DNA of 64,000 bases from Eledone cirrhosa. Its lineage: Eukaryota. Under the pieces are notes generated by a model. That model was not told the DNA's origin. It saw only the letters and a list, made by a program, of their open reading frames with translations, and ran no database searches. The stretch spans positions 21,390,001-21,454,000 of the forward strand of contig OZ024745.1 of NCBI GenBank assembly GCA_964016885.1, in the 5' to 3' direction. The position numbers were made by a program, and so were the translations under genes. Below are positions 3,001 to 48,400 of this stretch, piece after piece (the stretch's first letter is position 1; every line of letters starts with the position of its first letter).

Positions 3001-6000
3001 TAGTATTTAACCATAGGTCTGTTGTGAGGGTATTGACAAGACAGTATTTGACCATAGGTCTGTTGTGAGGGTATTGACAAGACAGTATTTGACCATAGGT
3101 CTGTTGTGAGGATATTGACAAGACAGTATTTGATCATAGGTCTGTTGTGAGGGTGTTGACAAGACAGTATTTGACCATAGGTCTGTTGTTAGGGTATTGA
3201 CAAGACAGTATTTGACCGTAGGTCTGTTGTGAGGGTATTGACAAGACAGTATTTGACCAAAGGTCAGTTGTGGGGGTATTGACAAGAGAGTATTTGATCA
3301 TAGGTCTGTTGTGAGGGTATTGACAAGACAGTATTTGAGGTCTGTTGTGAGGGTATTGACAAGACAGTATTTGACCAAAAGTCTGTTGTGAGGGTATTCA
3401 CAAGACAGTATTTGACCAGACGTCTGTTGTGAGGGTATTGACAATACAGTATTTGACCATAGGTCTGTTGTGAGGGTATTGACAAGACAGTATTTGACCA
3501 TAGGTCTGTTGTGAGGATATTGACAAGACAGTATTTGATTATAGGTCTGTTGTGAGGGTATTGACAAGATAGTATTTGACCATAGGTCTGTTGTGAGGGT
3601 ATTGACAAGACAGTATTTGAAGGAAAGGTCTGTTCTGAGGGTATTGACAAGACAGTATTTGACCATAGGTCTTTTGTAAGGGTATTGACAAGACAGTATT
3701 TGACCAAAGGTCTGTTGTGAGGGTATTGACAAGACAGTATTTGACCACAGGTCTGTTGTGAGCCTATTGACAAGACAGTACTTGACCATAGGTCTGTTGT
3801 GAGGGTATTGACAAGACAGTATTTGACTAAAGGTCTGTTGTGAGGGTATTGACAAAACAGTATTTGACAACAGGTCTATTGTGAGGGTATTGACAAGACA
3901 GTATTTGACCAACGGTCTGTTGTGAGGGTATTGACAAGATAGTATTTGACCATAGGTCTGCTGTGAGGGCATTGACAAGATAGTATTTGACCATAGGTCT
4001 GTTGTGAGGGTATTGGCAAGACAGTATTTGACCATAGGTCTGTTGTGAGGGTATTGACAAGACAGTATTTGACCATAGATCTGTTGTGACGGTATTGACA
4101 AGACAGTATTTGACCGTAGGTCTGTTGTGAGCGTATTGACAAGATAGTATTTGACAATAGGTCTGTTGTGAGGGTATTTAAAGATAGTATTTGACTAAAG
4201 TTCTGTTGTGAGGGTATTGACAAGACGGTACTTGATCATAGGTCTGTTGTGAGGGAATTGACAAGACAGTACTTGATCATAGGTCTGTTGTGAGGGTATT
4301 GACAAGACAGTACTTGACTATAGGTCTTTTGTGAGGGTATTGACAATATAGTATTTGAACAAAGGTCTGTTGTGAGGGTATTGAAAAGACAGTATTTCAC
4401 CATAGGTCTGTTGTGAGGATATTGACAAGACAGTATTTGACTAAAGGTCTGTTGTGAGGGTATTGACAAGAGAGTATTTGACAAGAGGTCTGTTGTGAGG
4501 GTATTGACAAGACAGTATTTGACCAAAGATCTGTTGTGAGCGTATTGACAAGACAGTACTTGACCACAGGTCTGTTGTGAGGGTATTGACAAGACAGTAT
4601 TTGACCAAAGGTCTGTTGTGAGGGTATTGACAAGACAGTACTTGACCATACGTCTGTTGTGAGGTTATAGATAAGACAGTATTTGACCAAAGGTCTGTTG
4701 TGAGGTATTGACAAGACAGTACTTGACCATGGGTCTGTTGTGAGTGTATTGACAAGATAGTATTTGATAATAGGTCTGTTGTGAGGGTATTGACAAGACA
4801 GTATTTGACCAAAGGTCCGTTCTGAGGGTATTGGCAAGACAGTATTTGGCCATTGATCTGTTGTGAGGGTATTGACAAGATAGTATTTGACCATAGGTCA
4901 GTTGTGAGGGTATTGACAAGACAGTATTTGACCATAGGTCTGTTGTGACGGTATTGACAAGACAGTATTTGACCAAAGGTCTGTTGTGAGGGTATTGACA
5001 AGACAGTATTTGACCAAAGGTCTGTTGTGAGGGTATTGACAAGAGAGTATTTGATCATAGGTCTGTTGTGAGGGTATTGACAAGACAGTATTTGATCATA
5101 GGTCTGTTGTGAGGGTATTGACGAGACAGCATTTGACCAAAGCTCTGTTGTGAGGGTATTGACAAGACAGTATTTGACCAAAGGTCTGTTGTGAGGGTAT
5201 TGACAAGACAGTATTTGACCAAAGGTCTGTTGTGAGGGTATTGACAAGACAGTATTTGATCATAGGTCTGTTGTGAGGGTATTGACGAGACAGTATTTGA
5301 CCAAAGGTCTGTTGTGAGGGTATTGATAAGACAGTATTTGACCAAAGGTCTGTTGTGAGGGTATTGACAAGACAGTATTTGACCAAAGGTCTGTTGTGAG
5401 GGTATTGACAAGACAGTATTTGATCATAGGTCTGTTGTGAGGGTATTGACAAGACAGTACTTGACCATACGTCTGTTGTGAGGTTATAGATAAGACAGTA
5501 TTTGACCAAAGGTCTGTTGTGAGGTATTGACAAGACAGTACTTGACCATGGGTCTGTTGTGAGTGTATTGACAAGATAGTATTTGATAATAGGTCTGTTG
5601 TGAGGGTATTGACAAGACAGTATTTGACCAAAGGTCCGTTCTGAGGGTATTGGCAAGACAGTATTTGATCATAGGTCTGTTGTGAGGGTATTGACAAGAT
5701 AGTATTTGACCATAGGTCTGTTGTGAGGGTATTGACAAGACAGTACTTGACCATAGGTCTGTTGTGAGTGTGTTGACAAGATAGTATTTGATAATAGGTC
5801 TGTTGTGAGGGTATTGACAAGACAGTATTTGACCAAAGGTCCGTTCTGAGGGTATTGGCAAGACAGTATTTGATCATAGGTCTGTTGTGAGGGTATTGAC
5901 AAGACAGTATTTGACCAAAGGTCCGTTGTGAGGGTATTGGCAAGACAGTATTTGGCCATTGATCTGTTGTGAGGGTATTGACAAGATAGTATTTGACCAT

Positions 6001-44787: not shown

Positions 44788-44967
44788 AATGTTTCTACAT
44801 TTTGCACAAGGCCAGCAATTGCCAGTGTATTACTGGTACTTTATTCTATCGACCCCGTAAGGATGAAAGGCAAAGTTGACCTCGGCAGGATTTGAATTCA
44901 GACTGTAACGGGCCGTAACTCTATGCTGCAAAGTATGGCGTCCGAGCCTCTACCGATACTGCCAATC
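44788..44967 (-). mobile_element. tRNA-derived SINE
   Basis: Core ACTGGTACTTTATTCTATCGACCCCGTAAGGATGAAAGGCAAAGTTGACCTCGGCAGGATTTGAA is shared with five other copies. Minus strand shows box A-like TGGCAGTATCGG and box B-like GAATTCAAATCC. Confidence 0.85.
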
Positions 44968-44977
44968 AATACTTAAT

Positions 44978-45159
44978 AATTGTTTTGGCACAAGGCCAGC
45001 AATTACCCAGTGTATTACTGGTACTTTATTTTATCGACCCCGTAAGGAGGAAAGGCAAAGTTAACCTCGGCGGGATTTGAACTCAAACAGTAAAGGGACG
45101 TATTTCTATGCTTCAATGCATGGCGTCCGACTCTCTACCGATACTGCCAATCCACCGCC
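44978..45159 (-). mobile_element. tRNA-derived SINE
   Basis: Minus strand begins GGCGGTGGATTGGCAGTATCGG (box A-like) and contains GAGTTCAAATCC (box B-like). CACCGCCCTAACTGGATG occurs at both 44765-44782 and 45153-45170, a possible target duplication. Confidence 0.85.
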
Positions 45160-46800: not shown

Positions 46801-47487
46801 AAATCGGAAGGAAGCAGCTTGTGTGTTTAAAAGACAAACAGTCTAAGAAACGTTGCAGTTAAACAAGACTAAATAGACAGACAGATGGAAATCTAAAACA
46901 TCGCCATCAACACGACCGCAGAAAAATGACAAATTGAGCTAAAAAACAACAAAACATAACAAAACAAATACCCCCCACCCCCACCCACACAAAAATCAAA
47001 TAAGAAATATGTAAATAAATAAAACAAAATAAATAATGAAAATAAAAATTATAAAGAACCTAAATAAAGAAAATATAAAGATAATATAAAGAAAATATAA
47101 ATATAAAGAAAATATATTAAACCAAAAAGATGTCAAAGTGAAAAACGAGAAAATTGAAAAAAAAAATAAAATAAATGAAATAAAAATGGTTAAAAGAAAG
47201 ATAATCCAGTAAATGAAAGTAAAATCTGAACGTAAGTTATGTACCATATATATATATATATATATATATATACAAATTTTAGTACAGCATTAACGAAGCT
47301 TTAGGTTGCGGCCAAGCTAACGAATGCAAATTCGGTATGTTGCTTTAGCACTCGATAGGAAATAGTACCCTAGAGTAATAACAATACCTTTAGACAGCTT
47401 TGCAAATCAAATATAGCGATCGGCAGTCCAGCCGCATTACCATAGCAGCGAAAATGGTTGGACTCAAAAAAGATTTTAGACTGACCT

Positions 47488-47536
<49 letters not shown>

Positions 47537-47642
47537 TGTATATATAGTGTATACTTAATTAAAAACATTTTGAAGACCTTACGCTATTGTTTTAAAGTAG
47601 TGACAATGTCACTTACTTCAATTTTCAGCAAAGAAGGGTAGA

Positions 47643-47691
47643 TAAGCTGACAGAGCTCTGTTTCGTACTTGTTGGTACTTATCAAAGCTCA
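47643..47691 (-). ncRNA. Minimal type I hammerhead ribozyme motif (U3-A8 core variant)
   Basis: Minus strand reads TGAGCT-TTGATAA-GTAC-CAACAA-GTAC-GAAA-CAGAGCTCTG-TC-AGCTTA: stem I, core, stem II, GAAA, palindromic stem III, GUC cleavage triplet, stem I partner. Confidence 0.8.
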
Positions 47692-47946
47692 GTACTCCTC
47701 CTGTCTGCTGAAAATTATGAATGTTGGATTCTTATAGAATTCCAGTAATAATCAGGAACTGATTATACGGAGCGGTTGCCGGTCCAGCAAAAATTGAAAA
47801 TTAGAATTGGTGCTCTGAAATAGCGATATATATATGAATGTATATATAGTGTATTTTGCAATACACTGTATGCTTAATTACAATGATTATTACTGGAATT
47901 CTATAAGAATCCAACATTCATAATTTTCAGCAGACAGGATGAGTGC

Positions 47947-47995
47947 TGAGCTTTGATAAGTACCAACAAGTACGAAACAGAGCTCTGTCAGCTTA
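47947..47995 (+). ncRNA. Minimal type I hammerhead ribozyme motif (U3-A8 core variant)
   Basis: Plus strand has the identical 49-nt motif TGAGCT-TTGATAA-GTAC-CAACAA-GTAC-GAAA-CAGAGCTCTG-TC-AGCTTA. Predicted cleavage is after C47989. Confidence 0.8.
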
Positions 47996-48150
47996 TCTCC
48001 TCTTGTTTGCTGAAAATCGAAGTAAATGACATTGTCACTACTTTAAAACAATAGCATATGGTCTTCAAAATGCTTTTAATTAAGCATACAGTGTATTGCA
48101 AAATACACTGTATATACATTCATATATATATCGCTATTTCAGAGCACCAA

Positions 48151-48155
<5 letters not shown>

Positions 48156-48232
<77 letters not shown>

Positions 48233-48266
48233 CACATATGCATATATATATATACACATATATACG

Positions 48267-48305
<39 letters not shown>

Positions 48306-48400
48306 TTATACATACATATGTGTATATGTATATGCATATATATACATGTATGTACACACACACATACACACACACATATATATGTGTGTGTGTGTGTGTT
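48156..48400. repeat. (TA)n/(CA)n/(TG)n microsatellite
   Basis: Read directly. Similar (TA)n tracts lie at about 47246-47272, 47490-47533, 48944-49166, 49234-49272, 49426-49504, 49683-49760, 50672-50733, 52199-52492, 52906-53300, 55425-55477, 55668-55783, 55936-56038 and 56203-56405. Confidence 0.95.

What the first reader, a model, noticed from the sequence alone, without database searches (positions are those of the whole stretch)
47524..48157. 319-nt hammerhead ribozyme unit in tandem-plus-inverted form: candidate retrozyme or circular-RNA retroelement
Seen: two identical 49-nt motifs (minus 47643-47691, plus 47947-47995) fold as minimal type I hammerheads with core UUGAUAA...GAAA, a 4-bp stem II, a fully palindromic stem III (ACAGAGCTCTGT) and a GUC site. 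The motifs are identical although adjacent arm sequence has several mismatches. The minus strand reads tail (47880-47800), linker (47799-47755), body, then tail again, so it exceeds one period of a 319-nt unit (CTTAATTA ends at 47561 and 47880). A further copy is joined in inverted orientation. Known: minimal hammerheads with palindromic stem III that act as dimers, including C3-G8 to U3-A8 covariants, occur in Penelope-like elements, and metazoan non-LTR retrozymes are short tandem hammerhead units that form circular RNAs. Inference: a non-coding, self-cleaving element copied from a multimeric or circular RNA and inserted at (TA)n. I do not know whether this family has been described.
Basis: partly seen in the sequence, partly recalled or inferred. 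Interest (0 to 1): 0.75.

Follow-up and report, generated by a model that had tools for sequence, protein, structure and literature searches.

The report
Hammerhead retrozyme with Penelope-type ends
This is one of thousands of copies of a short non-coding jumping repeat that carries a hammerhead motif predicted to cut its own RNA, and its mirror-image insertions, one of them fused to a Penelope-type retrotransposon, suggest which enzyme likely copies such ribozyme repeats into the genome.

Summary
47533-48157 is one insertion of a 319-nt non-coding unit with a type I hammerhead (U3-A8 core). The family is dispersed: 3,333 exact matches to its 26-nt end motif in the 3-Gb genome, several subfamilies, one 17-unit array. 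The hammerhead and a long stem beneath it keep their pairs through compensatory changes. Insertions are two 5'-truncated arms joined head to head in (TA)n. One arm stops at a short end, the other about 34 nt further (61 of 64 and 25 of 25 classifiable pairs): the Penelope-like (PLE) tail signature. The unit was never found as the terminal repeat of an ORF (0 of 240 loci), so it is a non-autonomous, non-LTR retrozyme, a known kind. One locus fuses a retrozyme arm mid-ORF to an RT/GIY-YIG PLE and a second abuts the same PLE family, naming a candidate helper. Cleavage, dimer dependence, expression and a circular RNA are untested; no RNA run was listed. The scan already reported this architecture for other units (310, 311, 422 nt) in this genome, but not this sequence.

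The parts
47533..47883 (-). Left arm: unit positions u317/1-319 plus a second lap to the short end (u45-47), with a 17-nt deletion in that lap; 5'-truncated at the central junction
   Evidence: short end placed from subfamily B
47884..48157 (+). Right arm: u127-319 plus u1-81, ending at the tail end
47643..47691 (-). Type I hammerhead motif, U3-A8 core; predicted cut after 47649 (u232)
47947..47995 (+). Type I hammerhead motif, U3-A8 core; predicted cut after 47989
47924..48016 (+). Long basal stem (47924-47936 with 48004-48016) closing the hammerhead domain; 4 of 13 pairs change on both sides between subfamilies
48086..48113 (+). Hairpin just upstream of both end sites; one pair swaps G-C/A-T between subfamilies; candidate recognition element (inferred); mostly deleted in the left arm's last lap
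48124..48157 (+). [quoted passage not shown]
47491..47532 (.). (TA)n target tract, left
48158..48344 (.). (TA)n target tract, right

Best explanation
This is a two-armed insertion of a high-copy, non-coding 319-nt hammerhead repeat (a non-LTR retrozyme) that was likely pasted into a (TA)n tract by the enzyme of a Penelope-like retrotransposon. Shown: dispersed family, conserved and covarying hammerhead fold, no ORF attached, head-to-head 5'-truncated arms, one short end plus one tail end about 34 nt apart, (TA)n flanks, arms longer than one unit. Inferred steps: (1) a more-than-unit copy or array is transcribed; (2) the hammerhead cuts out monomers, which a host ligase would close into circles, as shown for coral, mussel and axolotl retrozymes (PMC7229834); (3) a PLE GIY-YIG endonuclease breaks a (TA)n tract; (4) each broken end primes reverse transcription at its own fixed site (u45-47 or u81) on the same or a sister RNA, and the enzyme runs a variable distance, often past one full unit; (5) the two cDNAs are joined head to head with a few bases of overlap or filler. 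The candidate helper is the RT/GIY-YIG family of L161/L202. I put the non-autonomous PLE-driven reading at 0.8 and, within it, a circular rather than linear multimeric template at about 0.55.
For: Copy number: 103 exact matches to the 36-nt core, 273 to a looser core pattern, 3,333 to the 26-nt end motif, 0 in each reversed control. Fold: 47 chosen sequences from five subfamilies, 92% of cells paired, 10 of 27 pairs change on both sides, position 3-8 is U-A in 31 and C-G in 16 with no exception, slid controls 35-47% paired. In 64 loci chosen by the end motif, the nine invariant core sites match the majority base in 657 of 687 cells (95.6%) against 85.5% for the unit outside the end region. Ends: of 88 head-to-head insertions, 61 have one short and one tail end, 3 two short, 0 two tails, 24 an unclassified end (p = 5e-15 for 61 of 64); second sample 25 of 25 classifiable among 35. 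176 of 216 classified ends have (AT)3 or more within 16 nt, background 512 of 5,000. This matches the PLE pattern of inverted 5'-truncated copy, 30-40-bp tail at one end and (TA)n targets (PMC8557442, passages). Template longer than a unit: 90 of 245 arms exceed 349 nt, 25 of 245 read through two or three hammerhead sites. One template per insertion: the two arms are closer to each other than to other copies in 69 of 77 insertions (median 4.8% against 7.8%), successive laps in 47 of 57 arms. No ORF: 0 of 240 family loci have the unit as terminal repeat of a coding region; 16 have some PLE-like coding hit nearby, 4 of them upstream on the same strand, 3 of those across a microsatellite. Helper: in L202 a short-end retrozyme arm is joined, with about 3 nt of microhomology and no TA, to the middle of a PLE ORF; the opposite arm is that PLE's 3' part ending at its own tail end, and the jump point lies 60 nt from where the opposite arm stops. 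The family encodes RVT_1 and GIY-YIG and itself forms short-plus-tail head-to-head insertions (5 of 14 extended loci, two of them probably one duplicated event). L322 joins the same PLE family directly to a short-end arm of the same retrozyme subfamily.
Against: No RNA evidence at all. 5' ends do not pile up at the predicted cut site: 3 of 82 arms start at u229-240 in the end-motif sample; in the larger set the peak is at u249-254, at the base of the long stem, with other peaks at self-complementary spots. The predicted lowest-energy monomer fold is not the active hammerhead: the 5' strand of stem I pairs with the palindrome. Only 51 of 68 fully covered hammerheads in the unbiased sample keep an intact core. 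The unit shares no sequence with any of the 50 PLE loci examined, nor with the candidate helper, and their tails differ in length (about 34 against about 40-44 nt). L202 is 1 of 240 loci and could be two separate insertions followed by a deletion; L322 can be a later insertion into the TA tract beside a PLE end. Closer arms within an insertion could also come from gene conversion between inverted repeats. The covariation counts rest on few evolutionary events (five subfamilies), chosen by me, and two of five measures did not beat the shuffle control.
Confidence: 0.8

Rival explanations
1. The unit is the pseudo-LTR of an autonomous PLE that I did not sample; the copies are ordinary 5'-truncated ends of that element.
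For: All insertion features are PLE features; the genome has 10,597 GIY-YIG candidates of which only 50 loci were examined; Xenopus retrozymes are homologous to pLTRs (bioRxiv 10.64898/2026.07.22.740005).
Against: Arms run on into further laps of the unit, never into a shared upstream sequence: no common ORF-type flank among 69 single arms, 0 of 240 loci with the unit as terminal repeat; all 64 end-motif loci belong to the 319-nt family. Descent from an extinct pLTR remains possible and is compatible with the best explanation.
Confidence: 0.08
2. Same non-autonomous, PLE-driven element, but the template is a linear read-through transcript of tandem arrays or of earlier multi-lap insertions; the hammerhead cuts rarely and no circle is needed. 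(A variant inside the best explanation for step 2; listed for its own odds.)
For: A 17-unit array exists (L203, 18 hammerheads); arms cross the cut site intact; metazoan PLE hammerheads cleave poorly in vitro (PMC4209133) and 8 of 9 Xenopus dimers did not cleave.
Against: Laps within an arm are closer than unrelated copies in 47 of 57 arms, whereas units of L203 are now only 83-95% alike; the core is kept across subfamilies; the monomer is highly self-paired (z = -7.8 linear, -7.6 circular), as circular retrozyme RNAs are.
Confidence: 0.35
3. A DNA-level repeat (foldback or MITE-like element, or satellite) in which the hammerhead is a chance or dead feature.
For: The locus looks like an inverted repeat; Rfam scores are below threshold.
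Against: The outer ends are unequal and fixed, the inner junction is variable, the opposite of a terminal-inverted-repeat element; single-strand structure covaries, including the 3-8 core pair.
Confidence: 0.03

Closest known systems
Metazoan non-LTR retrozymes (coral, mussel, axolotl: PMC7229834, abstract passage, search passages and section 14 read; Xenopus and others: bioRxiv 10.64898/2026.07.22.740005, parts 1-3 of 5 read; supplements not seen)
   Same: Non-coding monomer within 170-400 nt, one type I hammerhead per unit, low GC, strong self-pairing, tandem copies, co-existence with autonomous PLEs, which both papers propose as the mobilising partner.
   Different: Mostly dispersed 1-2.5-unit arms in head-to-head pairs with two fixed unequal ends in (TA)n; the word 'inverted' does not occur in the main text of PMC7229834 and the parts of the preprint I read do not describe such ends. 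U3-A8 core. No RNA or cleavage data here.
Penelope-like elements with C-terminal GIY-YIG and their pseudo-LTR hammerheads (PMC8557442, passages; PMC4209133, parts 1-2 of 4; supplements not seen)
   Same: 5' truncation, partial tandems, inverted 5'-truncated copy, 30-40-bp tail at one end, (TA)n targets, type I hammerhead with palindromic helix III, U3-A8 covariant, hammerheads 100-700 bp apart on opposite strands.
   Different: No ORF; unit not found as a pLTR; hammerhead has a 4-bp helix II and a 4-bp helix III rather than the min-HHR layout.
LINE-1 twin priming (recalled, from no call)
   Same: Both ends of the break prime cDNA and the products are joined, giving an inversion; the L202 fusion has this geometry.
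   Different: Here both primers start near the same 3' site of the unit, at two fixed points, and there is no poly(A) tail.

Membership tests
Non-LTR retrozyme | Type I hammerhead in every repeat unit | tested here: met
   18 motifs in the 17-unit array; 51 of 68 cores intact in an unbiased sample
Non-LTR retrozyme | Short (about 170-400 nt), low-GC, non-coding monomer without LTR, PBS or PPT layout | tested here: met
   319-nt period; no attached ORF; PBS and PPT were not searched for separately
Non-LTR retrozyme | Tandem organisation (at least two consecutive hammerhead units somewhere in the family) | tested here: met
   25 of 245 arms hold two or three sites; L203 array. This locus itself has one hammerhead per arm.
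Non-LTR retrozyme | Self-cleavage of the RNA | not testable with these tools
   needs in vitro transcription; no pile-up of 5' ends at the cut site
Non-LTR retrozyme | Expressed as linear and circular monomer RNA | not testable with these tools
   no RNA holder listed
Autonomous Penelope-like element | ORF with RT and GIY-YIG flanked by the repeat | tested here: not met
   0 of 240 family loci; 0 of 50 PLE loci have the unit as terminal repeat; sample, not whole genome
Penelope-type insertion (works like) | Inverted 5'-truncated copy joined at the 5' end | tested here: met
   88 of 171 insertions; 35 of 64
Penelope-type insertion (works like) | 30-40-bp tail at one end only | tested here: met
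   short end u45-47, tail end u81; 61 of 64 and 25 of 25 pairs
Penelope-type insertion (works like) | (TA)n target bias | tested here: met
   176 of 216 ends against 512 of 5,000 background windows
Minimal dimer-only hammerhead of metazoan PLEs (min-HHR) | Helix III absent or 1-2 bp, longer helix II, unpaired base between positions 9 and 10.1 | tested here: not met
   4-bp helix II and 4-bp helix III, no unpaired base in subfamily A; definition from PMC4209133
Minimal dimer-only hammerhead of metazoan PLEs (min-HHR) | Cleaves only as a dimer through a palindromic helix III | tested here: inconclusive
   12-nt palindrome forms a -20 kcal/mol duplex and the monomer's predicted fold is inactive, but the perfect palindrome is lost in subfamilies B, D and E

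The most novel reading that the evidence does not exclude
A 319-nt RNA circle is loaded into the same integration complex as the mRNA of one particular Penelope-like family; both ends of a (TA)n break prime on it at two fixed sites, and the enzyme can jump from the circle onto its own mRNA. L202 is the fossil of such an event and names the helper enzyme for an animal retrozyme, a partnership so far argued from co-occurrence and pLTR homology only, here without any shared sequence.
Probability: 0.35. Interest if true: 0.72.

Novelty: new member of a known kind. Interest (0 to 1): 0.5.

Why it matters
Animal retrozymes are known to make abundant circular RNAs, but which enzyme puts them back into the genome, and how, is a proposal (PMC7229834 Discussion passage; bioRxiv 10.64898/2026.07.22.740005). 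This family carries the full Penelope-type insertion signature while sharing no detected sequence with any PLE examined, and one fused insertion points to a specific RT/GIY-YIG family. That gives a defined RNA, two defined priming sites and a candidate enzyme for a direct assay, and bears on the unexplained origin of the PLE tail and inverted repeat. As a sequence it is one more family among many hammerhead repeats in this genome.

Tried and rejected
Expression: no RNA holder listed; three coded contig sets of one sample and one study were laid and show only that the repeat is present; depth is no copy number and contigs show no ends, so nothing was drawn from them. In vivo cleavage from 5'-end positions: no pile-up at u233; an early impression of clustering came from the u249-254 peak. 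Search for a parent PLE with this unit as pLTR: none in 50 GIY-YIG loci; the one hit, L122, is a subfamily-B insertion in the TA tract after an unrelated PLE end. Shared 5' flanks of 69 single arms: 7 pairs, 5 of them unit sequence of subfamily B missed by the strict alignment, 2 other repeats not identified. Rfam miRNA hits around 48200-48400 are microsatellite matches below gathering score. A recalled Pfam accession was not in the library. The energy given for the active monomer fold (-22.8 against -41.1 kcal/mol) leaves out optional pairs and overstates the gap. Paper searches; none listed a paper on this family or on retrozyme-PLE fusion insertions, but the library lacks most subscription papers and Repbase/Dfam could not be checked, so the family may be catalogued as an unclassified or Penelope repeat. 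Lunse et al. 2017 on dimeric PLE hammerheads is recalled only. Rows dropped: L203 was left out of the insertion counts; duplicates of one insertion were merged; 6 of 70 loci were duplicates; multi-piece insertions (14 of 171) were not scored for ends; the 47 aligned sequences were picked by hand from 175.

Full report
Conventions. The unit U is the reverse complement of window 47562-47880 (319 nt); u-numbers count in it. The predicted cut follows u232. G000 is a 3.0-Gb animal genome in 1,796 contigs; the window is C5:21,390,001-21,454,000. That it is a cephalopod is my guess from recalled features and the wording of earlier scan notes, not a tool result.

Observation. The two 49-nt motifs are identical and sit in inverted arms of 213 nt with 13 mismatches. 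Each reads as a type I hammerhead with a U3-A8 core, 4-bp helix II, a 12-nt palindrome as helix III and a GUC site ending at 47989 on the plus arm and 47649 on the minus arm. Rfam finds both as weak Hammerhead_HH9 matches below threshold. The left arm runs on the minus strand from the junction at about 47883 through a whole unit and into a second lap; the right arm runs from u127 to u81 of the next lap. The identity of the two motifs alone is weak evidence (P 0.02 at that place, 0.29 anywhere).

A dispersed family. The right arm finds 2,913 candidates, of which 40 were scored, at 92-97% identity for the full-length matches. Exact patterns give 103 (36-nt core), 273 (looser core) and 3,333 (26-nt end motif) matches, with 0 in the reversed controls; the last counts internal laps too, so it is not an insertion count. 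Subfamilies differ by up to about 20%: A (this locus), C, D, E with other helix II pairs, and B with a C3-G8 core; more core variants appear in the unbiased sample. One array of 17 full units lies at C1:82.39 Mb; its units are 83-95% alike.

The RNA structure is real. On 47 sequences picked from 175 across five subfamilies, 92% of cells pair, 10 of 27 pairs change on both sides, and slid controls pair at 35-47%. The 3-8 pair is U-A in 31 and C-G in 16, never mixed in this set (1 mixed in all 175). Three of four helix II pairs and four of thirteen pairs of a long basal stem are compensated. Helix III does not covary; it is simply kept. Two of the five whole-structure measures did not beat the shuffles, and the changes are few events inherited by many copies. 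In 64 loci chosen by the end motif, the invariant core sites are more conserved than the rest of the unit (657 of 687 against 19,297 of 22,569 cells) and 51 of 68 hammerheads keep an intact core. The monomer folds far better than shuffles (z -7.8). The predicted monomer fold hides the active hammerhead by pairing stem I with the palindrome, so activity may need a dimer or a transient fold; the perfect palindrome is not kept in B, D and E, so the dimer is not established.

The insertion signature is Penelope-like. Among 171 distinct insertions, 88 are two arms joined at their truncated 5' ends, 69 are single arms and 14 are more complex. 3' ends fall in two classes. Subfamily B, whose unit has no TA run at the first site, shows that the short end lies at u45-47 and the other at u81, a tail of about 34 nt. 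Of the 88 pairs, 61 have one end of each kind, 3 two short ends, none two tails and 24 an unclassified end; an independent sample gave 25 of 25 among 35 pairs (this sample was chosen by the tail motif, which can also lie inside an arm). Ends abut (TA)n in 176 of 216 cases against 10% background. Craig et al. (PMC8557442, passages) list exactly these marks for PLEs: partial tandems, an inverted 5'-truncated copy, a 30-40-bp tail at one end and (TA)n targets.

The template exceeds one unit. 90 of 245 arms are longer than 349 nt, the longest 1,000 nt; 25 read through two or three cut sites. The two arms of one insertion are closer than unrelated copies in 69 of 77 cases, and successive laps in 47 of 57. 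This fits one RNA, a circle or a uniform multimer, per insertion, though gene conversion could contribute. In this locus the arms differ at 11 of 250 sites against a median of 6.1% between copies. 5' ends show no excess at the cut site, so the genome gives no sign of linear cleaved ends.

Non-autonomous. The genome is rich in PLEs (10,597 GIY-YIG candidates; long ORFs with RT and GIY-YIG) and in other hammerhead families. None of 50 PLE loci has U as terminal repeat, no ORF-type flank is shared among 69 single arms, and none of 240 family loci has U after an ORF end. These are samples, not a census.

A candidate helper. In L202 (C1:81.32 Mb) a subfamily-D arm with a short end is joined at u97, with about 3 nt of microhomology and no TA, to the middle of a PLE ORF; that PLE stretch runs 1.8 kb to a head-to-head junction, and the opposite arm is the PLE's 3' part ending in its own tail end and (TA)n. 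The inverted PLE stretch stops at L161 nt 4738 and the direct arm starts at 4798, and no remainder of the unit lies on the far side. The simplest reading is one event: one break end primed on the PLE mRNA, the other on the retrozyme and then jumped to the mRNA near where the first had stopped, keeping the one-short-one-tail rule across two RNAs. Two insertions and a deletion cannot be excluded. The family encodes RVT_1 and GIY-YIG and makes short-plus-tail pairs itself, with a tail of about 40-44 nt. One of 25 loci found with its 3' end (L307, extended as L322) is joined directly to another subfamily-D short-end arm starting at u238, six bases after the cut site; a later insertion into the neighbouring TA tract explains this one equally well. 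No sequence is shared between the unit and this PLE.

Comparison and verdict. The unit meets the sequence-testable definition of a metazoan non-LTR retrozyme (PMC7229834; bioRxiv 10.64898/2026.07.22.740005), both of which propose PLEs as the mobilising partner; U3-A8 cores and opposite-strand hammerhead pairs were noted in PMC4209133. Five paper searches listed nothing on this family; supplements of these papers were not seen and may hold related cephalopod motifs. Earlier scan notes report the same two-armed architecture for 310-, 311- and 422-nt units in this genome and nothing for this sequence; I did not check their data. Verdict: real, a new member of a known kind, with good genomic evidence for PLE-type integration and a single-locus lead to the helper; cleavage and circle untested. 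Interest 0.5.

Noticed in passing
window 1-44502: 41-bp satellite array filling 44.5 kb, with a 123-bp higher-order unit and recurring 67/108-bp breaks.
   Followed up: no
window 47274-47490: A second high-copy repeat between two (TA)n tracts just left of the finding; 2,003 candidates, 93-96% identity, tandem spacing about 631-633 nt at some loci; here truncated. No hammerhead seen in this piece.
   Followed up: partly
window 44800-45152: 185-bp repeat in 1.9 copies that looks like a SINE (label recalled).
   Followed up: no
L203:3456-8957 (G000:C1:82.39 Mb): 17-unit tandem array of subfamily C, units 83-95% alike, ends not in (TA)n and flanked on one side by a short inverted repeat of other DNA; possible source locus.
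   Followed up: partly
L122:2700-2745 and L121, L124, L132, L168 3' regions: Subfamily B and an unrelated PLE family both have a U-U mismatch at 10.1-11.1 where canonical hammerheads have G-C.
   Followed up: no
L151:3309-6122, L153:1775-5062: [quoted passage not shown]
   Followed up: partly
L061:300-2300, L090:950-3100: Other tandem hammerhead repeats with periods of 467 and about 519 nt near family loci.
   Followed up: no
L266 (G000:C1:56,078,495-56,078,846): A 163-nt deletion derivative of the unit repeated in tandem, with the end motif but no hammerhead found.
   Followed up: no
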